Origin: Lytechinus pictus
Taxonomy: Eukaryota
DNA length: 64,000 nt
Direction: 5' to 3'
NCBI RefSeq assembly: GCF_037042905.1
Contig: NC_087250.1
Span: 14,820,001-14,884,000, forward strand
This document shows, piece after piece, positions 37,083 through 62,318 of the stretch (the first letter of the stretch is position 1; the number at the start of each line of letters is the position of its first letter). The position numbers were made by a program, and so were the translations under genes. The notes beneath the pieces were generated by a model. The model saw only the letters and a program-made list of their open reading frames with translations, did no database searches and was not told where the DNA came from.

Positions 37083-39030
37083 ATGTTCCCAGAACGTGTT
37101 TGGAACTTTTTCAAAGACCAAGCACTCGCGATTAGAACTTGTGGAGGATATTTAGTGGACAGTGTTCTTGCACCATTGGCATAGCTGATCTCGGAGAAGT
37201 CATCGATTGAATATAATGGAATGTCAACAAAGGCCAACATCTACTTGCTCTTCGTTGGACCTCCCTCAACTGGGAAATCGCAGGCCACACAAGTAGGAAC
37301 AACTGACCCTCTACAGGCGATAGATACTGTACGAAACAACACGATTCCCCTTGCCATCGAAAAGTCCACTTCCGGAGGACTGTTTTGCAGATTGGCCGAA
37401 GGGGATGGAATGATGGTCTCCGGCGAGATACACGACATTCTTCTGAAAATGGCAAAGAATGACGGAGAGAGCGCAAGTGGGGATATTGCAACTTTGTGCT
37501 ACTTGTTTAGTGGTGAAAAAGTATCGACGACATACATGTACGCTACCCAAAACAAAAAGGAAATAGAGGCTGGGCGTGCTTTCTCCATTGTAGGTGCAAC
37601 CCAACAAGGACCAGCCGCTCATCTCCTCACAGCTCTTGACAATGGTTAACGGGATGATTGAGAAACTATTGAGCCATTTCCAAGATTGCTTGCGAACCTT
37701 TCCCAAGGATACGCGAGAAGCACACCATCGTCTACTTGAATCAGGATCGCTTAGTATCACGAAGTGTGCTATAAGTCGTCGAAAACCGACACGAAAAGGG
37801 TGTAAAATATTCCTTTTCAGATTGCAAGAAAAACTAAACAAAATGAGCAGTACATCAAGGCGATAAACCAAACCATTGTAGAGGGAACTTTTCCTCCTCA
37901 GACATTCGACTTGCCGCACCCATTCAGGTTCTCAAGTCCATAGTAGAAGACCTGCTGGTGGGACGTCCACCAAATGCACCAAACCAACTAATCGGACTGG
38001 AGAGTCTAGTGGCAGCCCAAAAGCTGGTTAAATATGCAGAAGGGCAGAAAGAGACTTTCTTAACCGTAAGTATATCAATCAACTGGTACATGGATATTGT
38101 TTAACACAAAAAATATCAATAATACCAACGTGTTATATTGCTAATTACTAGGCTTTTAGGTATATATTTGAATATTATTATATTAGAAAATACAATTCAC
38201 TTTATGAATGTGATGATCTTCTCTGAACAGAACAAATTTAATAATTGTCTATTACTCATGTGTGTATTTTGATTATACATGTAGAACATAAAGATGACAT
38301 TTTATTAACTTTTCCAAATGTTGATATTGAGTCAATAATTATGTGTGTAATTTAATGATTGCAGAAAAACATGTGACTTTATATCAATTTATGTTGTATC
38401 GATTAATGTTACAGGAACTTTGAGATATTACGACCAAAGTGACCACTCCGGTCAAGGATCAGCCAACACCAACCAGTGTGGCTGCTGCCAATGTTAGATC
38501 ACCAGGAAACGTGCCGATATATCGCTCCTTCAAGTCTACCTGCATTAAGCCCATGAGGAGCGTTAGCAGTGTGGAATTTCCAAGTGCTCTCACGGATCTC
38601 AAAGATGTTGGGGAGGTAACATCGATCCGCAGTGGAGGAAACAGCAGGCCCTCGGTGGTATTTTGTTAAAAAAGACCCAGATATCATCGACTGGGACACC
38701 TTCACTATTGTTAGTAGAGAGGAATACCCCATAGCCTGCATAAAGAATTTGCCAAGCTGTGAACACCAAAAACATGAGGAATGCGCTTATTAGCAGTGTG
38801 GAGTTTTCAAGAGCTCCCACTAATTTCAAAGATGTTGGGGCGGTAACTTAGATCCGCAGTGTAGGAAACAGCAGTTTCTCAGTGGTATTTGTTAAAAAAG
38901 ATCCTCATATCATCGACTGGGACACCTTCACTAAAGTAGAGAAGCTTACATCGCAGCCTACATAAAATTTGCCAAGCTGTGTTACCAAAAACATGAGGAA
39001 TGTGCTTATCCAAAGGAGAAATGAGATTGT
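37083..39030 (+). pseudogene. Decayed P-loop NTPase gene, DUF3987/YfjI-like, two exons (intron 38066-38414)
   Basis: NIYLLFVGPPSTGKS Walker A at 37257-37280, hydrophobic strand plus GEIHD, SIVGATQ motif; in-frame TAG at 37182, frameshift near 37647, internal about 220-bp duplication in exon 2. Confidence 0.7.
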
Positions 39031-52912: not shown

Positions 52913-55693
52913 TGACTTCTTAGCTTTCTTCTTATAAAAGCATATAGATATATAATTAGATAACTCGAGCGCAAAGCGCGAGCTATTTTTTTTTCGGGGG
53001 GGGGGAATTTCATGTATTTTGTCCTGAAAATTTAACATTTTGAGCAATGTTTGTGGTTCTGAACAAGATGCGTATGTAACAAATAATAACTGCGAACGTG
53101 ATCAGCGCGAGCAGATATTTTTTATATACGCTCTGGCCTGATCGAAAGGGACGTGTTATAAGGACTATTTGCAGTTACCCATTAAGACGATACATCTATC
53201 AACTATCAAATAATGCGAACGCGAAGCGCGAGCTGAAAAATTTGACATTCCGACCTAAGTACTGGATATTCTAAGCACTCTTTGTAATCATGAAAAGGGT
53301 AGGTATATAAATATATAATTGATGCGAGCGCGAAGCGCGAGCGGAAACAAAATTGAGATTTCAGACCAAAAACGAGACATTCTAAGCACTTTTCTAATCA
53401 TGAACAGGATATGTATAACACTATACAATTGATGCGAGCACGAAGCGCGAGCGGAAATAAAAATGAGATTTCAGACCTAAAAACAGGACATCTTAAGCAC
53501 TTTTCTAATCATGAACAGGATAGGTATATAACTATACAATTGATGCGAGCGCGAGCGGAAACGAAATTGAGATTTCAGACCAAAAAACGAGACATTCTAA
53601 GCACTTTTCTAGTCATCATGGTCATAAAGAGGATATGTATATAACTATACAATTGATGCGAGCGTGAAGCGCGAGCGGAAATAAAAATGAGATTTCAGAC
53701 CCCCAAAAAACCAGGACATCTTAAGCATTTTTCTAATCAAGAACAGGATAGGTATATAACTATACAATTGATGCGAGCGGAAACAAAATTGAGATTTCAG
53801 ACATATAAATGGGACATTCTACTCGTGTTTTGTAAATCAAGAAAATGATGGGTAATTGGATATATTCTGACATTAATAATGTGAGCGCGAAGCGCGAGCA
53901 GAATTTTGTTGATATTCTGATCTGAAACTCCGCACTGAATGTAATATGGTTTGAACAGATAAAGAAAAATCAGACGAACATAAGAATAAAGATTTGATCA
54001 AAATCCGACAAGGATTTTAAAGATTAGCATTATTCCGGTGAAACAGTTTTAAGCATGTTTTCATTAATATTCAATGAGCAAACTGATGATGTCATATCCC
54101 CCTTGTTCTTTTGTATTTTATTACATATAACTAGGTTTTTTCAATATTTTCCCTTCAAGAACCAAAAACAGTTTAATTGACAACTGATTTAGTCCATTAG
54201 ATATTCTTTGCTGCATCTTATTTCATTATAAGGGAGACATTATCATTCACACTGGTATGAAAAAAATTAAACAATTTTGATTCCATGTAATAACACAAGA
54301 AACAGGATAGTGGGGATGTGACATCTTCAACCCACATGGACGAAAATCCCAGAGGGGACAGGGGGACGTGTCCCCCCTACCAAATAATAGTAGGGGGACA
54401 CAAGATCGAATGTTCCCCTAGTACTATTTTTGGTCTTTCATGATGGAGAAAAATTCATCACTTCACAATCGAAATAATAGAAGGATTTTTGACTAAATGA
54501 CCTTACATTTTTGGTGAAAACCTTTTTTTTTTTAGGGAGGGGGGGGGGGGGGGGCTTGTCAAATTTTGTTAGGGTTAAAATGACCTTACATTTAGGGTGA
54601 TAACCTTTTTATTTTTTTTGCTTGTCAAATTTTACAGGCCCTTTGGGGACAGATTTCCGCCCATGTCAACCCACATATTAATTATTTATGACGACATGCA
54701 TATCACCATTTTCATAAAATATTGCTAAACTGTAAAATTAAATAACTTAACTATTTGTTATCAGATTTTCATAAAATTTATTTATTTTGATAAAATGTAT
54801 TTGATATAAATATTTTCAGCCCGGAGTTCCCCCAAAACAAGCTGCGTATCTCAATAAACATGCGTAGAGTTAGACCTAGTATCTGGGCATTCTACATACA
54901 TTTTTTATTATAAAAATCAATAATGCGAGTGCGGATGCGCGTGCGGGAAAATATTTGATATTCCGATTTGAAAAAGGGTGAAGAATTTAAACACTATTTT
55001 AAGAACTGTGCCGGAAAATTCTGAAGGGGGGGTTCTACAAAACGTCGTTCATTTTTATTACATTTCTGTCATTTATCATATACCTACCACTAGCTTTCCA
55101 GGAGGTGCTGCCTATGGAAAATAATACATGCAGCACCCCCAAATTTTGGGGGTGCTTCACCCCCAGCACCCCCGCTTCCCAGGGCCATGGGGCAGGGCGA
55201 AAAAGACTGTGAAATTTGATTTCTATTGTCTGACTTGTAATTGTTTATACAAAACACGGGAGGTCGGGCGCGCGCACACTTGATTCGACATAAAACCTGG
55301 AAGTTTCAAGTCCAACCACACCCATATCCTATGTCCCTCCCTGCTATCGAGTAGTGTGTAAACCATATATAGAGTGTTTAGGTTTATGTATAACTCTATG
55401 GTGTAAACTATGGTTATCACGTATCGCGCGCGACCACGTCTGTTTCGGAATGCCGGGGCTTGATTGAGTCGCGTTATAGGAGGGATGTTATTGGAATATG
55501 TGAAAGACTTTGTAAATGATTTGCGATTGTCGGATGTGATAATTATGTAAATTATAACATATTTAAAAAAAATACAGGGGGGAACCTGATTTCGTGGGGG
55601 GTGCTGCCTATGGAAAATAATACACGCAGCACCCCCAGGAAAATTTCTGAGGGTGCTTCAGCACCCCCAGCACCCCCGCTTCCCAGGTCCCTG
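52746..55693. mobile_element. hAT-like non-autonomous element with internal about 118-bp gcgagcgcgaagcgcgagc tandem repeat
   Basis: TIR cagggacctgggaa; 8-bp TSD cctcacac. Confidence 0.9.
54335..54665. mobile_element. CATGG...CCATG MITE nested inside a Kolobok-like fragment
   Basis: 8-bp TSD tcaaccca. Confidence 0.85.
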
Positions 55694-57331
55694 CCTCACA
55701 CCATTTACATCATCACAAACTTCAACTCTCACACTTTGAGTCAATCAACTTAACACTCTCATGCTTGATTAATAATTTTCTGTTGTAACGGGACGCACAC
55801 ATTATGCCAAAATACCACTTAGTCTTGAATTTATTAAATTAATCAAATTGAAATATATATGACATACTGTTGCACAAGTGGAAGCTACGTTGTCATGATA
55901 AGAATAGTAATAATAAAATTCAGAGTATATAATTAGCCATAGTATATTTGATTGACTTATACTTCAGGTTTATGTAGCTATACATATTTCAAGTAATTGG
56001 TTTTCTTTTCTTTTTTTGGGGGGAGGGGGATTGTCCTCAGTGATAGTTGATACCTACTGTGTGTTTGGCCAACTTTAATTGGTAAGCATACATTGACTTA
56101 ATTTGTAAAAGATAAAGTATATAGACCATGCACATGTAAAGAAATTAAGTTCAAGAATATATTTTAAAAAACGACAACAACAAACAGTATAAATGCATAA
56201 CAGGTATAATACAACCTATTTGAACAAAAGAACTTTCACAATTTGCAAGCACTACATTTGACAGTAAGCTGAATCAAATAGTAGAATCTGATATTGGACG
56301 GAAAGAGATTATATGTCATTACGCGTGAAAGACAATCTATTTATATGTAATTAATGGTAATTACAGGATCACTAAGTTCTTCTACATCACGGCTTTATAT
56401 ATTGTTGATTTATCAAGTTGTGTAAGTAGGCCTACTGTTACAATATCAGTTGCCTGGTTGAGGCAAGATTAATGGTTGTTGTGATTAAATGAAATCTATA
56501 AGAGTTAGATAACAAAATAAATACAAGAAAATACCAACAGCTAGGCAACTTTTTTTTTTTTTCATACACTATGTGCCTTTTTTTTTCTCATCAAAACTAA
56601 ATGTGACCAGCCACCCAGAATCAACAAAAGTTGCCATGGATAGTTTTTAGTAAATAAGCACAATAGTTTTTAATAAAATAAAAAAATATCAAAATTTAGT
56701 TAATCTAAAAGAGTAATTATTTTTCTTTATACTGTCAAAATTTAAGGTTGTAAAAGTTGAAGACAAAAATACAAGAGTTTCTTTGAAAACCATTCCTTAA
56801 TAGTTTAAGGTTGCATATTACATATCTCACAATTGAGTGAACCCCAAATATCGAACCTTGTTTTCTCCGAATTCGTTGAAGCTCTCACCAAATTTCCTGC
56901 ATTCAATCAAGTACTTAAGAGGGACATTATTGACCTCAATTGATATATCATTTTAGAGCTCATGATGTGCTTGTTCAAGATGAATGAAAATCTTCAAATT
57001 AATATATGGCATTTATTGTTAGTTTTAGGGTGGCTGGAGACATATAGCTTGTCAATTGCATAAAACGATCAACTTTTTTTACAAGTGACCCAAATTTTTC
57101 TCAGGTTTTACTTCACTTTATAAACTGACCAAGCCATGGTAATTTGAGAGCATATGACTGTCAAAAGAACAAGAAATCAGAGACAAAAAATTTCAGGAAG
57201 GTCCCACACATATTTCATGGTATTGCCCAAATATATATTTTTATCTGCCAAAAAAGCATGTTACAATTAACATGTTTTTTTTACTGGCAAGTATTACACT
57301 AGCAGGACATGATAATAAAAAGAAACTGAAG

Positions 57332-57336
<5 letters not shown>

Positions 57337-57429
<93 letters not shown>

Positions 57430-57452
57430 TATATATATATATATGTGTGTGT
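57337..57452. repeat. (TA)n/(CA)n microsatellite
   Basis: Directly visible. Confidence 0.95.
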
Positions 57453-57598
57453 GAAGTAATACATGTACTACAGCTTTGGCAACTCTTTTATATTTAAATA
57501 TTGTGTGAAAGAAATGGATGAAGAGAACAATGGTAGGCGTAGCTTAAATCAAGGTTCCCCAGAGCTATCTACCCTTTTTGGAAAAATTGGTGATGCCG

Positions 57599-57603
57599 AA
57601 AAA
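57599..57603 (-). terminator. Pol III T5 terminator directly after the tRNA-like gene
   Basis: TTTTT immediately 3' of the discriminator A. Confidence 0.55.
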
Positions 57604-57675
57604 TGTCTCTGCCGGGAATCGAACCCGGGCCCCCAGCTTTGAACGCCGGTGCCTTAACCACTAGACCACAGAGAC
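57604..57675 (-). tRNA. 72-nt tRNA-like cloverleaf, anticodon UCA (opal-reading), probably repeat-borne
   Basis: GTCTCTG-TG-GTCT AGTGGTTA AGGC-A-CCGGC GTTCAAA GCTGG-GGGC-CCGGG TTCGATT CCCGG-CAGAGAC-A; all four stems pair; A and B boxes intact. Confidence 0.6.
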
Positions 57676-58382
57676 AGGTTAGTGGCTAGGGCGACCCCGA
57701 TCCAATTGACCGTCAGATAGACAGATTTTCGACACCATACCAATTATAATTTCCTTTGTCGGGTGAAGGTGGGTTTTGAACAATGACAAGCCGCCATGCC
57801 TCAGCTGGATCAAAGCTATTGCTTTGATACAGTACACGTATGGGAGAAAGTATACATGGATGAAGAGAACAATGGTAGGCGTAGCTTAAATCAAGGTTCC
57901 CCAGAGCTATCTACCCTTTTTGGAAAAATTGGTGATGCCGAAAAAATGTCTCTGCCGGGAATCGAACCCGGGGTGGTTAAGGCACCGGCGTTCAAAGCTA
58001 TATATATATATATATGTGATACAATAGTATAAATAACGTTTGTTTACAAATGGTAGTGGCAGGATCAATGAAATAATAAAAAATCATACTAGTGTATGAT
58101 GTTGGGAAGTACTGTTATAATAGTAGAAGTAGTATTAGTATATAGTAGTCAAAACATGACCAAAGTTTAATGTGTGGTAACAGATGCATGTTAACAATGT
58201 TTCTACACCGTCTCCTAAGACTGTTGTATAGGCAGCAAAATGGTTGCAAATTTTGTCTAAAATGGTATGAGGACAATTAACAAAAAAAAATTACCAAATA
58301 AAACACTATACACTAATGGCAAAGAATCTTGCATGAAATAGTTGTCACAGAATAATGATTAGCCTCAAAACTGATTACTTGA

Positions 58383-59770
58383 TAAAACCTCACCGTACAC
58401 TTGCCTCATCTCATCTTACGTTGTCCTCTACATATATTTTATCATTATACATTTTTTTTAATAAAACCTCACTGCACACTTGCCTCATCTCATCTTACAT
58501 TTTCCTCCACATATATTTGTATTATCTCCTTTAAAAAAAAAAAACCTCACTGCACACTTGCCTCAGCTCATCTTACATTGTCCTCTACATATATTTTATC
58601 ATTATACATTGTTTGATAAAACCTCACCGTACACTTTCCTCATCTCATCTTACATCGTCCTCCACATATATTTATATTATCTCCTCTTTTGAAAAAAACC
58701 ATCACCGTACACTTTCCTCACCTCATCTTACATTGTCCTCTATATATGTTTGTATTACCTCCTCTTTTCAAAAAACCTCATTGCACACTTAATTGCCTCG
58801 GCTCATCTTACAGTAACATTGTCCTGTACCAGTGGCGTACCTAGGATTTTCCACAGGGTGGGGGGGGGGGGGGCAAAACCATCCGCCAAAAAATTTGACA
58901 AGCAAAAAAAAAAGTTATCAATCACAAAGAAAGGATTTCGTACAAGAAAGAAAATTGACAAGAAAAAAAAAAAGGTCTTCAAGCTCGTCAGGGGGGCAAT
59001 AGAGGTCTTCAAGCTCGTCAGGGGGGCAAAAAAGGTCTTCCAAGCTCGTCAGGGGGGCAGGGATACATCTTTTGCATGGGTGGTGGCTCATCGGGGGGGG
59101 GGGCAGACTGCCCCCCCCCCGTAGGTACGCTAGTGTCCTCTACATATATTTGTATTATCTCCTCTTTCGAAAAAAAACTCACTGTACACTTGCCTCATCT
59201 CATCTTACGTTGTCCTCTACATATATTTATATTGTCTCCTCTTTTGAAAAAACCTCAGTGCACACTTGCCCCATCTCATCTTAATTGTCCTCCACATATA
59301 TCTGTATTATCTCCTCTTTTGGAAAAACCTCACTGCACACTTTCCTCATCTCATCTTACATTGTCCTCCACATATATTTGTATTATCTCCTCTTTTGGAA
59401 ATACCTTACTGCACACTTGCCTCATCTCATCTTACATTGTCCTCCACATATATTTGTATTATCTCCTCTTTTGGAAAAACCTCACTGCACACTTTCCTCA
59501 TCTCATCTTACATTGTCCTCCACATATATTTATATTGTCTCCTCTTTTGAAAAAACCTCACTGCACACTTGCCTCATCTCATCTTACATTGTCCTCCACA
59601 TATATTTGTATTATCTCCTTTTTTTAAAAAACCTCACTGTACACTTGCCTCAGCTCATCTTACATTGTCCTCCATAATATATTTGTATTATCTCCTCTTC
59701 TGAAAATAACCTCACTGCACACTTGCCTCACCTCATCTTCCATTGTCCTCCATATATTTATATTATTTCC
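58383..59770. repeat. About 75-bp minisatellite in right TIR arm (about 14 units), interrupted by a MITE
   Basis: aaacctcactgcacacttgcctcatctcatcttacattgtcctcc repeats. Confidence 0.9.
58830..59135 (+). mobile_element. hAT-like MITE family D
   Basis: cagtggcgtacctagg...gtaggtacgctagtg; TSD tcctgtac/tcctctac (1 mismatch). Confidence 0.85.
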
Positions 59771-60964
59771 TCTTATGTAAAAACTTCATCAAACACTTAT
59801 ATTTTCTACACTATAAACTCCTACGTTGTTTTATACACACACACGCCATTTGAAAACTCTCTTTGGTTGTTCACACTCGGTATTGTACACACACACACAT
59901 GCGCACGACCACGATCTAATGAATATTCATCGGCGAACCGTCGGATGGATAGTGACGTAGAGCTGGACATTTTATCGCCCCTCGCTGTATTTTGTCATCA
60001 AAAGTGCCTACCTATTTTTTCTTATAGGACGCCTCACTTGGCCAGTACAAGAGTATAGTTTATTTAGGCTATATTATGAATTTTTGATTTAGACATCGTG
60101 TGTAGGAATTCTTAAAATCATTACCAAAAAGGAGGTGACCGATATTCCAATCAACCTCTTGAAAGAAAAGCATCCACCTCTCCAACCCCTCCCTAATTGA
60201 ATAAATCTAACGAGCCACTCTACATGATCTGACGAATAACGAATAGTTGAAAGAATTTGGATAGGAAGGAGAGAGAAAAGAAACACTTCTCGTTAAAATG
60301 GAAAATATGGGGTAAGATTTCTATTTACTCATATTTTACTTATATGACTCAGGAAATAAAATGTTAAAAATAAAAAGTGGGTCGAATATAATTCAGTTAG
60401 GAAAACCGAATGGCGGACGGGGAGGAAGTCTATTAATACATATAGGACGATTGATTGATTTGATAATAAATAAAAATAAAATAAAAAATTTGATAAGTTC
60501 TTACGTCTTCTTGGTGAAAGACTTTTCGTAACATTTTTTTTTTCGATTTTGAAATACGCTGATCATAAAATGGGGGTGAATTTAGCTTTATGAAAATAAA
60601 TGGAGTCCGTGGCGAACTTAGAAATTCGTTCAAAGCATGCATTTAATGGAGTTGCGATGTAAGCGGCATATTGAAATATAAGAAGTGGTGATTTTTACAA
60701 ACAATAATAGAAATGAAGACTGGTGGAATCAGGGCAATTATATAGTATTTTCACTTATAGTGTGTATTGCATGCAACCACCCTGTTGTAGAGCGATGAGA
60801 AAATTGGTATAGTAAACCACGGACCTATAGGCCAATGGGTAAATTAATGAAAGTGTCGCAAGGACACGATTTTGAATGTTTGGAATGAAATTATAAAGAC
60901 TTCCTCCAAAGGTTTATTGGTTTATGGGTGGAGCCTTTTGGGGGCATCAAATTAAAGTAGTTCC

Positions 60965-60972: not shown

Positions 60973-61085
60973 CAAGGTTTTTCTCGTTCAGTATTCTATA
61001 CAGCCCCAAAAGCAGGGAAGTTGCGGGAGAAATTAATATCGCATCTTCTTAAATTCGCCCCTGGACTGATATTAAGCATAGTCTA

Positions 61086-62318
61086 ATGATGCCTCTAAAT
61101 AAAGCGGAATCATCACCATATTTCTCAGAAACACTTCCTACATCTTTCCCTGGGACTATCCCCGGATCATCTCTCTTTACGGAGTCCAGGACTGAGTTTG
61201 AAACACAGAGTTATTTTATTGAGATCCTGGATGAGAATCCAGGTTCTCAGGTAGGCCTATCGTTGGCCGAAGCCACGGGATCCAGTCTGAGAAGCACCCG
61301 AGTGGAGGATTCCCAAGCCAGTGTTTCTTGGGAGTGGTACCCGCTTGAATGGAAATGGTGGACGATCATCCAACTCCTAGCTGCGAATGTAGGAATCATC
61401 GGAAACTTCCTGGTGATCCTGGTTGTTTTCAGGAGAGGGATCAAACGGAAGTCCACCGACATCCTCATAGGAACTTTGGCCATTGCTGATTTCCTGACCT
61501 CCATATTCCTGATACCCCTGCCACCAATCAAGCAACTCCCATCGACTTGGATCGGTCAGATCTACTGCAAGATAGTCTATGTCAACATCGTCATGTGGAC
61601 CTCTGTGACTATTTCTGTTTTCATCCTGTCGGCTGTGTCCATTGAACGCCTTGTTGCCATAGCCTATCCTCTACACTTCAAGACTATCTTTTCAAATCGC
61701 TTGACAGCTATCTACATCTTCGTCATCACTGCAGTAGTGATCATCATCCAGGTCGTGTGGTCTTTCACGGCCTTCGTCGATGAGGACAAGAATACATGCG
61801 TATTGCGATATTCTTCAAAGCAACTACAGGCGGACGTCGGGATCGCCTTGTTCTTCTACAAGATTGTCATACCGGGTTTTGTCATGTTTGTGTCGCAAGC
61901 TCTGACGGTAATGGTTCTGCGAGCAGAGTACAAACGGTTCGGCGACACGGGCAAAGACATCAACGTTTGTAGTCCTCAGTTCAAGCTTTTGATAGCGAAG
62001 AAAAGGGTTGTGAACATGCTCCTGATCGTCCTATTAACCTTCTTCATCTGCTGGGGTCCTAATCAGATCTTCTATCTGTTGCTCAACCTTGGTCTAGTAC
62101 CCACATCTTATCTCTATGGTCCGTTGCATCGATTTCTTGTTGTTTTAGCTTTCTTCAACTCTTGTCTCAATCCGGTTATCTACACGGCCCGTTATCCACG
62201 GTTCCGTGAAGCTCTTAAAGATTTGTTCTCAAGCTCTTCTATCAAGTCACAAGTCCCAATCTTTGGGCAGAAAATGGAAACTTCTACAGTGCCTACCATT
62301 GCCAGTAATGTTGCTTGA
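61086..62318 (+). CDS. Single-exon rhodopsin-family GPCR (galanin/allatostatin-A/somatostatin receptor-like), 410 aa
   Basis: Seven hydrophobic segments; GN (TM1), LAIAD (TM2), Cys pair, SIERL (TM3), CWGP (TM6), NSCLNPVIY (TM7). Confidence 0.95.
   Translation: MMPLNKAESSPYFSETLPTSFPGTIPGSSLFTESRTEFETQSYFIEILDENPGSQVGLSLAEATGSSLRSTRVEDSQASVSWEWYPLEWKWWTIIQLLAANVGIIGNFLVILVVFRRGIKRKSTDILIGTLAIADFLTSIFLIPLPPIKQLPSTWIGQIYCKIVYVNIVMWTSVTISVFILSAVSIERLVAIAYPLHFKTIFSNRLTAIYIFVITAVVIIIQVVWSFTAFVDEDKNTCVLRYSSKQLQADVGIALFFYKIVIPGFVMFVSQALTVMVLRAEYKRFGDTGKDINVCSPQFKLLIAKKRVVNMLLIVLLTFFICWGPNQIFYLLLNLGLVPTSYLYGPLHRFLVVLAFFNSCLNPVIYTARYPRFREALKDLFSSSSIKSQVPIFGQKMETSTVPTIASNVA

What the first reader, a model, noticed from the sequence alone, without database searches (positions are those of the whole stretch)
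57604..57675. Fully paired tRNA-like gene with an opal-reading UCA anticodon, carried by a repeat
Seen: the minus strand folds into a canonical 72-nt cloverleaf with a perfect 7-bp acceptor stem and paired D, anticodon and T stems. It has intact A and B boxes and a T5 stop right after the discriminator. The 7-nt anticodon loop GTTCAAA puts TCA at positions 34-36. Known: tRNA-Sec has a long variable arm and non-standard stem lengths, which are absent here (4-nt variable loop). SINE heads usually lose acceptor pairing and read on into a body rather than terminating. Inference: a mobile, multicopy UGA-suppressor-like or tRNA-mimic Pol III gene, possibly derived from tRNA-Glu (TTC shifted by one). 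G32 is atypical, so decoding function is uncertain.
Basis: partly seen in the sequence, partly recalled or inferred. Interest (0 to 1): 0.75.

Follow-up and report, generated by a model that had tools for sequence, protein, structure and literature searches.

The report
tRNA-like module of a mobile repeat
The "opal-suppressor tRNA" is one of more than two thousand near-identical copies of a tRNA-like piece carried inside a 409-base mobile repeat that lands in (TA)n microsatellites, and its stop-codon-reading anticodon is a single inherited mutation of an older glycine-type (TCC) version, so it is most likely repeat DNA and not a working suppressor gene.

Summary
Window 57604-57675 (-) is a fully paired 72-nt cloverleaf with anticodon TCA, G32, tRNA-type promoter boxes and a T5 run. 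It scores 60.9 bits on Rfam tRNA, within the range of this genome's real tRNAs (59.5-65.7).

It is not a single gene. The 812-Mb genome, apparently a sea urchin, holds 1,176 exact copies and at least 2,306 near-exact ones. Each sits at positions 182-253 of a 409-nt unit found singly, in short arrays, or in arrays of about 45 units.

The arrays lie inside (TA)n microsatellites, and I found an empty site to match a filled one. Their 3' ends are fixed at unit 368 or 409, their 5' ends are scattered, and inverted neighbours are always head-to-head. Copy number rises toward the 3' end (1,696, then 2,306, then 2,976).

An older, more diverged subfamily carries TCC and eight other diagnostic differences, so TCA is a C36-to-A subfamily mutation.

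The stems show no covariation. Private substitutions are as frequent in the tRNA part as in the flanks. A canonical tRNA-Sec exists elsewhere in the genome.

Whether Pol III transcribes these copies, or whether they are charged, could not be tested.

The parts
57604..57675 (-). 72-nt tRNA-like module (unit positions 182-253). Anticodon TCA, G32, discriminator A. One of 1,176 identical copies.
   Evidence: (RF00005, 60.9 bits).
57599..57603 (-). T5 run directly after the discriminator, resembling a Pol III terminator. The family consensus is T6.
   Evidence: T6 in 36 of 40 TCA copies and T5 in 3.
57448..57856 (-). One complete 409-nt repeat unit: 181 nt upstream, the tRNA module, then 156 nt downstream.
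   Evidence: copies 90-99% identical in 30 other loci. Consensus.
57336..57447 (.). Compound (CA)n/(TA)n/(TG)n/(TA)n microsatellite abutting the unit's 3' end (unit 409).
   Evidence: Across 63 array segments, 49 have (TA)>=5 within 40 nt of the 3' end.
57857..57972 (-). Truncated upstream unit (unit 228-343): T arm, 3' acceptor half, T6 and 3' flank, joined directly to position 1 of the full unit.
   Evidence: D5: 90 nt 100% identical to 57514-57603; D10: 31 nt identical..
57973..57999 (+). Inverted 27-nt fragment, equal to tRNA nt 15-41 including the anticodon loop, fused head-to-head to the truncated unit. Five unit positions (223-227) are missing at the junction, a twin-priming-like layout.
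   Evidence: (D4, last row). 14 of 14 inverted neighbours elsewhere are head-to-head.
58000..58015 (.). (TA)8 tract on the far side of the insertion.

Best explanation
The 72-nt cloverleaf is the tRNA-derived module of a roughly 409-nt non-autonomous repeat family, not a dedicated opal-suppressor gene. The genome holds about 3,000 units of this family and appears to be a sea urchin's.

What is shown:
1. The same unit occurs thousands of times on all large contigs, as single units, short arrays and arrays of about 45 units.
2. The units sit inside (TA)n microsatellites. For one copy there is a filled site and 11 empty sites of the same host repeat.
3. The TCA anticodon is a diagnostic C36-to-A change of the young, amplified subfamily. 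An older subfamily has TCC, the Gly-UCC anticodon.
4. Copies decay without compensatory changes in the stems. Private substitutions are as frequent in the tRNA part as in the flanks.

What is inferred:
- Spread is RNA-mediated, by target-primed reverse transcription using a LINE enzyme (about 55% likely). A sense-strand transcript of a unit or array is primed from a nicked (TA)n target on UA-rich spots of the unit (around positions 368 and 409/1). This gives fixed 3' ends, random 5' truncation and multi-unit inserts. Because (TA)n is self-complementary, it also gives head-to-head inverted pairs.
- The tRNA module keeps working Pol III promoter boxes and a terminator because the family is young. 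Some copies may be transcribed.
- The product is unlikely to decode UGA. It has G32. A36 removes the Gly anticodon identity. The acceptor stem differs from real tRNA-Gly. More than 1,000 active suppressor genes would be hard to tolerate.
For: Copy number:
- 2,306 hits at up to 2 mismatches and 1,176 exact 72-mers; reversed controls gave 0.
- The unit and its arrays appear (about 45 units of 406 bp; 35 of 36 tRNAs identical).

Target site:
- L007 holds 1.07 units inside the (TA)n of another repeat. 11 of 11 other copies of that host repeat have the uninterrupted (TA)n.
- Other copies of the host repeat are filled with different extents and orientation.

Array ends (63 array segments):
- 3' ends fall at unit 366-368 in 21 and at 407-409 in 25.
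- (TA)>=5 lies beside the 3' end in 49 and beside the 5' end in 19.
- 5' starts are spread from 1 to 359.
- In 77 copies anchored on a 3' 35-mer, 56 are 5'-truncated at scattered positions and only 44 keep the whole tRNA.
- 35-mer counts rise 5' to 3': 1,696, 2,306, 2,976.
- Inverted neighbours: 14 head-to-head, 0 tail-to-tail.

Subfamilies:
- The 17 TCC copies share 8 further diagnostic positions.
- They are 8.1% diverged from their own consensus, against 2.5% for the 40 TCA copies (Mann-Whitney p 9e-7).
- Two intermediate copies exist.
- Only 19 exact TCC 19-mers occur genome-wide.

No sign of selection on the tRNA part:
- 95.9% of stem cells pair, against 95.8% in shuffles (129 of 500 shuffles as high). 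There is 1 compensatory cell and 30 unpaired cells of 735.
- Private substitutions are 18 of 3,156 in the tRNA and 60 of 7,875 in the flanks (p 0.32). Variant alleles per site are 0.35 and 0.38.
- Stems are more mutated than loops (1.47% against 0.76%).

Other checks:
- A real tRNA-Sec lies elsewhere: 2 loci, 76.9 bits, 87 nt.
- A real Gly-UCC cluster lies on C13.
- Microsatellite-specific non-LTR retrotransposons are known (PMC4640811, passages read).
Against: Points that could indicate constraint on the tRNA module:
- The consensus cloverleaf is perfect in both subfamilies. It scores like genuine tRNAs (60.9 bits against 59.5-65.7).
- Counted per cell, the tRNA part is less diverged than the flanks: 1.17% against 2.21%, p 2e-4. 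The tRNA-selected samples gave 1.6% against 2.0% and 4.3% against 5.6%, neither significant. Weak constraint or gene conversion is therefore not excluded.
- TCA is kept in 44 of 44 copies sampled without regard to the tRNA. The 7-nt anticodon loop shows 1 substitution and 1 gap among those 44 copies.

Gaps in the evidence:
- No small-RNA or tRNA-seq data could be examined, so Pol III transcription, maturation and charging are open.
- For the retroposition model, no partner LINE was identified and no poly(A) is present.
- Target-site duplications cannot be seen inside (TA)n.
- The two 3' ends coincide with TA-rich spots of the unit, so a DNA-copying mechanism primed by microhomology remains possible.
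Confidence: 0.8

Rival explanations
1. The family is a working natural opal suppressor or recoding tRNA. Pol III transcribes many copies, the RNA is matured and charged (for example by TrpRS, given C35, A36 and A73; this identity rule is recalled, not tested), and it reads UGA at a low level.
For: The cloverleaf is perfect and scores in the range of real tRNAs. Its promoter stretches are identical to those of real tRNA-Glu. A T5-T6 run follows it. There are 1,176 identical copies. TCA is kept in 44 of 44 copies sampled without regard to the tRNA. Per-cell divergence is lower in the tRNA than in the flanks.
Against: The stems show no covariation and stem-breaking changes are tolerated. Private substitution rates equal those of the flanks. 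33 of 77 anchored copies lack a complete tRNA. TCA arose as one of 9 subfamily-diagnostic changes spread over the whole unit. G32 is present, and the acceptor stem is unlike that of the genome's Gly or Glu tRNAs. More than a thousand active suppressor genes would be expected to be harmful (inference). The family's distribution is that of a transposon landing in microsatellites.
Confidence: 0.04
2. The copies are transcribed or bound by the Pol III machinery and serve a non-decoding role. Possibilities include TFIIIC/B-box sites acting as chromatin boundaries, a source of tRNA-fragment-like small RNAs, or a decoy for tRNA-binding factors.
For: The same intact promoter boxes and terminator appear in most young copies. 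Copy number is high and spread genome-wide. Per-cell divergence is somewhat lower in the tRNA part.
Against: No data bear on occupancy or small RNAs. Event-level substitution rates do not differ from the flanks. Frequent truncation removes the module. Such roles are usually by-products of SINE-like repeats, not the reason they exist (inference).
Confidence: 0.1
3. The spread is DNA-mediated, not RNA-mediated. Broken (TA)n tracts, which are fragile and cruciform-forming, are repaired by microhomology-primed copying from unit arrays elsewhere, or by reintegration of extrachromosomal circles of the satellite.
For: Both preferred 3' ends (unit 368 and 409/1) are TA-rich spots that could pair with a (TA)n end. 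Inserts exceed one unit. Long homogeneous arrays exist as donors. Fold-back or inverted junctions are common. No partner LINE, poly(A) tail or target-site duplication was seen.
Against: (TA)n is self-complementary, so a DNA end could copy either donor strand. Yet the anchoring is one-sided: 46 of 63 segments end at the two 3' spots, while 5' starts are scattered. 14 of 14 inversions are head-to-head. Copy number rises steadily toward the 3' end. Simple circle reintegration predicts a 5' start equal to the 3' end plus 1, which is not seen.
Confidence: 0.3
4. It is a selenocysteine tRNA gene, as ARAGORN labels it.
For: Anticodon TCA.
Against: It is 72 nt long with a 7/5 acceptor/T layout, a 4-bp D stem and a 4-nt variable loop. 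Only RF00005 reaches threshold on the window. Real tRNA-Sec genes of 87 nt score 76.9 bits on RF01852 at two other loci.
Confidence: 0

Closest known systems
tRNA-derived SINEs (Pol III retroposons mobilised by LINEs)
   Same: The module is tRNA-related with internal promoter boxes. There are thousands of copies. Subfamilies are defined by diagnostic substitutions. The 3' end is fixed beside a simple-repeat tract and 5' truncation is variable. Copies decay neutrally. tRNA finders call such copies tRNAs with odd anticodons.
   Different: The tRNA sits in the middle of the unit (182-253 of 409) and is followed at once by a T5-T6 run, so a Pol III transcript from it would not cover the element. 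Inserts include sequence upstream of the tRNA and often more than one unit. The acceptor stem is fully paired. The tail is (TA)n, not poly(A). No LINE-derived tail was identified.
Satellite DNAs derived from SINE-like Pol III elements: Xenopus laevis satellite 1 and the Hy/Pol III satellite of European plethodontid salamanders (review PMC6947457, Table 1 and passages read)
   Same: Head-to-tail arrays of a unit a few hundred bases long that carries a tRNA-type Pol III promoter module. The organisation is both dispersed and tandem.
   Different: No sequence comparison with those satellites was made. Here most loci hold only 1-3 units, placed inside (TA)n microsatellites. The module is a complete cloverleaf with an opal anticodon.
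Microsatellite-specific non-LTR retrotransposons, e.g. the (TG)n-specific Togen families, some HERO families, and R4/Dong (PMC4640811, passages read)
   Same: Insertion into one kind of microsatellite. A fixed 3' end and a ragged 5' end.
   Different: Those are autonomous elements that encode an endonuclease and a reverse transcriptase. This 409-nt unit encodes nothing and would have to borrow such an enzyme. No (TA)n-specific partner was looked for or found here.
Twin priming of L1 insertions (5' inversion; recalled from the literature, not read here)
   Same: Head-to-head inverted segments at the 5' side of an insertion. In the window, an inverted piece (unit 196-222) lies immediately 5' of the direct piece (which starts at unit 228).
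   Different: In most pairs here both arms end at the canonical 3' ends beside (TA)n. That points to priming from both strands of a palindromic target, not internal priming on one RNA.
Opal suppressor tRNAs and tRNA-Sec
   Same: Anticodon UCA.
   Different: There is no evidence of charging or decoding. G32 is present. The copy number and distribution are those of a repeat. Genuine tRNA-Sec is present elsewhere with its special structure.

Membership tests
Canonical cytosolic elongator tRNA gene | Cloverleaf that reaches the Rfam RF00005 gathering score | tested here: met
   60.9 bits against a cut-off of 29. Genuine tRNAs of this genome score 59.5-65.7.
Canonical cytosolic elongator tRNA gene | Internal Pol III promoter boxes and a downstream T-run | tested here: met
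   The D-loop and T-loop stretches are identical to those of the genome's tRNA-Glu-UUC. T5 is present here and T6 in 36 of 40 copies. The box consensus itself is recalled.
Canonical cytosolic elongator tRNA gene | Anticodon for a sense codon, with a pyrimidine at position 32 | tested here: not met
   TCA and G32.
Canonical cytosolic elongator tRNA gene | Stems kept by compensatory change, and the gene more conserved than its flanks | tested here: not met
   1 compensatory cell and 30 unpaired cells of 735, no better than shuffles. Private substitutions 0.57% against 0.76% in flanks, p 0.32. Per-cell divergence is lower (1.17% against 2.21%), so weak constraint is not excluded.
Canonical cytosolic elongator tRNA gene | Mature, CCA-tailed, aminoacylated RNA | not testable with these tools
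   Only poly(A)-type RNA-seq could be laid.
tRNA-Sec | About 87-90 nt with a long variable arm, a 13-bp acceptor+T stack and a 6-bp D stem; RF01852 at or above 47 bits | tested here: not met
   72 nt with a 4-nt variable loop. Only RF00005 passes on the window. Real tRNA-Sec scores 76.9 bits elsewhere.
tRNA-derived SINE | tRNA-related head at the 5' end whose Pol III transcript runs through the body | tested here: not met
   The tRNA lies at unit 182-253 and is followed by T5-T6. Inserts include upstream sequence.
tRNA-derived SINE | Fixed 3' end with a simple-repeat tail, variable 5' truncation, and subfamilies with diagnostic changes | tested here: met
tRNA-derived SINE | Target-site duplications and a partner LINE sharing the 3' tail | tested here: inconclusive
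   Insertion lies within (TA)n, so duplications cannot be seen. A partner LINE was not searched for.
Satellite DNA with a Pol III module | Head-to-tail arrays of a constant unit | tested here: met
   406-412-bp spacing at many loci. About 45 homogeneous units at C2:8.866-8.884 Mb.
Satellite DNA with a Pol III module | Long arrays as the main form of the family | tested here: not met
   Most of the 63 segments examined are under 2.5 units.
Microsatellite-targeting retroelement (non-autonomous) | Insertion into one microsatellite type, shown by filled and empty sites | tested here: met
   One filled site against 11 of 11 empty (TA)n sites of the same host repeat. (TA)n lies beside 49 of 63 3' ends.
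Microsatellite-targeting retroelement (non-autonomous) | An RNA intermediate and dependence on reverse transcriptase | not testable with these tools
   Inferred only from the one-sided pattern of ends.

The most novel reading that the evidence does not exclude
The young subfamily is actively transcribed by Pol III from more than 1,000 identical genes and matured into a UCA-anticodon tRNA. In this reading the C36-to-A change was not a passenger. One version is that it made the RNA invisible to GlyRS, removing a cost of mis-charging and allowing the burst of amplification. The other is that the RNA is charged by another synthetase and gives this sea urchin a standing, repeat-encoded pool of opal suppressor that modulates UGA read-through.
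Probability: 0.04. Interest if true: 0.85.

Novelty: new member of a known kind. Interest (0 to 1): 0.3.

Why it matters
- **Annotation.** Any tRNA finder run on this genome will report one to two thousand high-scoring 'suppressor' or 'SeC' tRNAs. These should be masked as a repeat family, not counted as genes.
- **Transposon biology.** The family is a clean case of a tRNA-bearing tandem unit that lands in (TA)n microsatellites, with fixed 3' ends, ragged 5' ends and only head-to-head inversions. It could help identify a (TA)n-specific retrotransposition machinery in echinoderms. It also shows how satellite-like arrays get scattered through a genome.
- **Translation.** It raises a testable question. 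A genome carries more than 1,000 promoter-intact genes for an opal-anticodon tRNA-like RNA. How does it keep them silent, uncharged or harmless?

Tried and rejected
**Searches that gave nothing**
- A DNA search of the genome with the 72-mer found nothing, not even the window itself, because very common words are skipped.
- The look-up of sequencing runs listed no RNA holder.
- Three raw RNA-seq runs of a coded organism were laid. Reads cover the whole unit evenly in both mate orientations, cross unit-to-unit junctions, and show no pile-up, ends or drop at the tRNA or its T-run.
  - About 1,400 of 12.9 million records were laid in the richest run. That share is below the family's share of the genome (my arithmetic).
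  - This fits read-through or background and says nothing about a tRNA-sized product.
- The Rfam scan at E up to 1 over 57300-58100 found no ribozyme or other RNA in the unit. It gave only sub-threshold microsatellite hairpins.
- Six literature searches found no description of this family. Repbase and Dfam could not be consulted.
- Earlier-scan look-ups by words and by sequence gave nothing.

**Readings considered and rejected**
- Origin from tRNA-Glu by a shifted TTC. The old subfamily has TCC in register, and the shifted reading would put G at position 33.
- A Helitron or MITE carrier. The arrays have no conserved termini or inverted ends, and the flanks beyond (TA)n are unique or belong to unrelated repeats.
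- Reintegration of a unit circle. 5' starts are not the 3' end plus 1.
- In-place growth of (TA)n inside old arrays as the only cause of the flanks. Empty sites of the host repeat already carry the (TA)n.

**A bias I corrected**
- My first conservation estimate came from copies chosen by an exact tRNA pattern and was therefore biased. I repeated it on copies chosen by a flank pattern.

Full report
**What is there**

On the minus strand, window 57604-57675 reads as a 72-nt cloverleaf.
- It has a 7-bp acceptor stem, a 4-bp D stem, a 5-bp anticodon stem and a 5-bp T stem.
- It has a 4-nt variable loop and discriminator A.
- The anticodon loop is GTTCAAA, so positions 34-36 are TCA and position 32 is G.
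- TTTTT follows directly.

ARAGORN finds this as the only tRNA of the window and labels it SeC because of the anticodon. Rfam gives one hit at gathering threshold in the whole 64 kb: RF00005 tRNA at 60.9 bits, E 1e-10. Real tRNAs of the same genome score 59.5-65.7 bits with the same model, so by score it cannot be told from a gene. The bare RNA folds at -30.4 kcal/mol (z -2.0), with the D stem open in the minimum-energy structure.

**It is one copy of a large repeat family**

The window belongs to an 812-Mb assembly of 368 contigs.
- A 35-nt stretch from the anticodon arm to the T arm occurs 2,306 times at up to 2 mismatches. The reversed control gave 0.
- The full 72-mer occurs exactly 1,176 times.
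- Many hits are spaced 406-412 bp apart.
- One array on contig 2 has about 45 units, and 35 of the 36 tRNA modules I read there are identical.

Comparing 30 loci with the window defines a 409-nt unit, window 57856 down to 57448 on the minus strand. The tRNA lies at unit positions 182-253. Nothing else in the unit matches an Rfam family.

Earlier notes of this scan call the genome a sea urchin (unchecked notes). An intronless GPCR ORF at 61053-62318 has its nearest Atlas cluster mostly in Echinodermata, which fits that label.

**Where the copies sit**

Nearly all arrays are bordered by (TA)n.

One case gives a filled site and its empty counterparts.
- In L007, 1.07 units (unit 380-409 plus 1-409) lie inside the (TA)n tract of a different and much more abundant repeat.
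- 11 of 11 other copies of that host repeat have the same two flanks joined by an uninterrupted (TA)n.
- Other copies of the host repeat are filled at the same tract with different extents, and one in the opposite orientation.
- Those host copies are only about 80% alike, while the inserted units are about 95% or more like the family consensus.

I take these to be independent insertions into (TA)n.

**The shape of the insertions**

Over 63 array segments:
- The 3' end lies at unit 366-368 in 21 and at 407-409 in 25.
- (TA)>=5 lies within 40 nt of the 3' end in 49, and of the 5' end in 19.
- 5' starts are scattered from 1 to 359.

In an independent sample of 77 copies anchored only on an exact 35-mer of the 3' flank:
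- 21 reach unit position 1.
- The other 56 start anywhere from 3 to 296.
- Only 44 contain the whole tRNA.

Genome-wide counts of three 35-mers, all at up to 2 mismatches, rise from 5' to 3':

| Unit positions | Count |
|---|---|
| 31-65 | 1,696 |
| 204-238 | 2,306 |
| 297-331 | 2,976 |

Adjacent arrays in opposite orientation are head-to-head in 14 of 14 cases, with 5' ends meeting and 3' ends facing outward.

The window shows the same layout, in this order:
1. (TA)8.
2. An inverted 27-nt piece (tRNA nt 15-41).
3. A truncated unit (228-343).
4. The full unit.
5. A compound (CA)/(TA)/(TG) microsatellite.

**How it most likely spreads (inferred)**

A fixed 3' end, a ragged 5' end, a 3'-ward copy-number gradient and head-to-head inversions are the marks of target-primed reverse transcription with 5' truncation and twin priming. 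The twin-priming concept is recalled from the literature, not read here.

The two preferred 3' ends are UA-rich spots of the unit. These could pair with a nicked (TA)n target. Because (TA)n is self-complementary, both target strands could prime, which would explain the exclusively head-to-head pairs.

Microsatellite-specific non-LTR retrotransposons are known (PMC4640811, passages read), but I did not identify a partner element.

A DNA-copying route primed by TA microhomology remains possible. The one-sidedness of the pattern argues against it, since a (TA)n DNA end could copy either donor strand. I put RNA-mediated spread at about 55% and DNA-mediated spread at about 30%.

**Where the TCA comes from**

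I searched for the same T arm with U33 but not A at position 36. This found 220 places. Among the first 100 listed were the genome's real Glu, Gly-GCC and other tRNAs, and about 28 members of this family with TCC, TCG or TCT.

I fetched 18 TCC loci and 2 TCG loci. All lie in the same 409-nt unit.

Of 59 units plus the window:
- 40 have TCA, 17 TCC, 2 TCG and 1 TCT. The sample was enriched on purpose for non-TCA copies.
- The TCC copies share eight further diagnostic positions (unit 7, 32, 91, 137, 286, 354, 401, 405).
- They are 8.1% diverged from their own consensus, against 2.5% for the TCA copies (p 9e-7).
- Two TCA copies carry several 'old' states and look intermediate.
- One TCC copy sits on the young background and looks like a back-mutation.

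Only 19 exact TCC 19-mers exist in the genome. So the family began with a Gly(UCC)-type anticodon, and a master copy with C36 to A then amplified about a hundredfold.

The genome's real tRNA-Gly-UCC lies in a cluster of about 35 genes on contig 13. It is 49 of 72 identical to the module. Real Glu-UUC is 48 of 72 identical. The deeper origin (Gly or Glu) is therefore open, but the 'shifted TTC' idea is not supported.

**Is the tRNA part under selection?**

*Stems.* On 51 copies (35 distinct), 95.9% of stem cells pair, against 95.8% in shuffles (129 of 500 shuffles as high). There is one compensatory cell and 30 unpaired cells of 735.

*Divergence in copies chosen by a tRNA pattern.* Outside the pattern, the tRNA did not differ from the flanks: 1.6% against 2.0% (p 0.35) for TCA copies, and 4.3% against 5.6% (p 0.15) for TCC copies.

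*Divergence in the flank-anchored sample.*
- All 44 complete copies have TCA, and 10 are identical to the consensus.
- Per cell, the tRNA is less diverged than the flanks: 37 of 3,156 against 174 of 7,875 (p 2e-4).
- That gap comes from shared subfamily variants in the flanks.
- Private substitutions are 18 of 3,156 against 60 of 7,875 (p 0.32).
- Distinct variant alleles per site are 25 of 72 against 86 of 224 (p 0.17).
- Stems carry more changes than loops (1.47% against 0.76%).

I read this as no, or at most weak, constraint.

**What it probably does**

The module keeps promoter stretches identical to working tRNA genes, and a T6 run in 36 of 40 young copies. Some Pol III transcription is therefore plausible. 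I could not test it.
- No RNA holder was listed.
- The three raw RNA-seq runs I could lay are cDNA libraries. They cover the whole unit evenly on both strands and across unit junctions, with no feature at the tRNA.

Decoding of UGA is unlikely.
- G32 is very unusual at that position.
- A36 removes the Gly anticodon identity, and the acceptor stem is unlike real tRNA-Gly. The identity rules are recalled, not tested.
- More than a thousand active suppressor genes should be costly.

A canonical tRNA-Sec (87 nt, 76.9 bits on RF01852) is present at two other loci. The SeC label is therefore wrong.

**Comparison with what is known**

The nearest kinds are:
- tRNA-derived SINEs.
- Satellites that grew from SINE-like Pol III elements: Xenopus satellite 1 and the salamander Hy/Pol III family (review PMC6947457, Table 1 and passages read).

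The family differs in four ways:
- The tRNA is complete, sits inside the unit and has its own terminator.
- Inserts are multi-unit.
- The tail or target is (TA)n.
- Inversions are strictly head-to-head.

Another sea urchin genome paper reports 3,393 tRNAscan predictions (PMC11310861, passages read). That fits tRNA-like repeats inflating counts in this group but says nothing about this family. My six literature searches found no description of it. Repbase and Dfam were not available, so it may already be catalogued there.

**Verdict**

The finding is real, but it is a repeat module whose opal anticodon is an inherited subfamily mutation. As a suppressor tRNA it has low interest. As a (TA)n-targeting, tRNA-bearing tandem retroposon it has moderate interest for people who study transposons.

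Noticed in passing
window 58384-59779: A minisatellite of 76-78-bp units, with at least 12 copies 72-93% alike, lies about 500 bp from the tRNA repeat. It is unrelated in sequence to the 409-nt unit (families D1-D3).
   Followed up: no
window 61053-62318 (+): An intronless 421-codon ORF encodes a rhodopsin-family GPCR (Pfam 7tm_1, E 9e-36). Its nearest Atlas cluster is mostly echinoderm.
   Followed up: partly
G000 C13:22.08-22.16 Mb and C3:30.24-30.34 Mb: Dense clusters of genuine tRNA genes. About 35 tRNA-Gly-UCC genes lie on C13 and at least 35 tRNA-Gly-GCC (plus a CCC variant) on C3, in both orientations at spacings of 0.7-5 kb.
   Followed up: partly
genome-wide, e.g. G000 C3:23817816, C4:17917635 (one search list): Two other dispersed tRNA-like families carry a CTTCCAA anticodon loop and different T arms. 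They are probably separate tRNA-derived SINE families.
   Followed up: no
L007:1184-1326 and 1768-2500 (G000 C1:6.024 Mb) and L062-L072: The host repeat of the filled/empty-site comparison is very abundant (2,692 first-look candidates, copies 87-97% alike over 533 nt). It carries its own (CA)n and (TA)n tracts and an internal duplication of about 100 nt.
   Followed up: partly
L013:1218-1297 (G000 C1:8.507 Mb): An array of the tRNA unit is flanked on both sides by what reads like the C-terminal part of a Tc1/mariner-type transposase gene, so the array seems to have landed inside a transposon copy. The identification is by eye only.
   Followed up: no
window 37185-37646 (+): A 154-codon ORF has a weak, sub-threshold match to Pfam DUF3987 (E 2e-5, 24.2 bits against a cut-off of 27).
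   Followed up: no
window 55101-55693: Two direct repeat pairs about 500 bp apart (41 nt at 95% and 32 nt at 94%), suggesting a local duplication of about 500 bp (D8 and D11).
   Followed up: no
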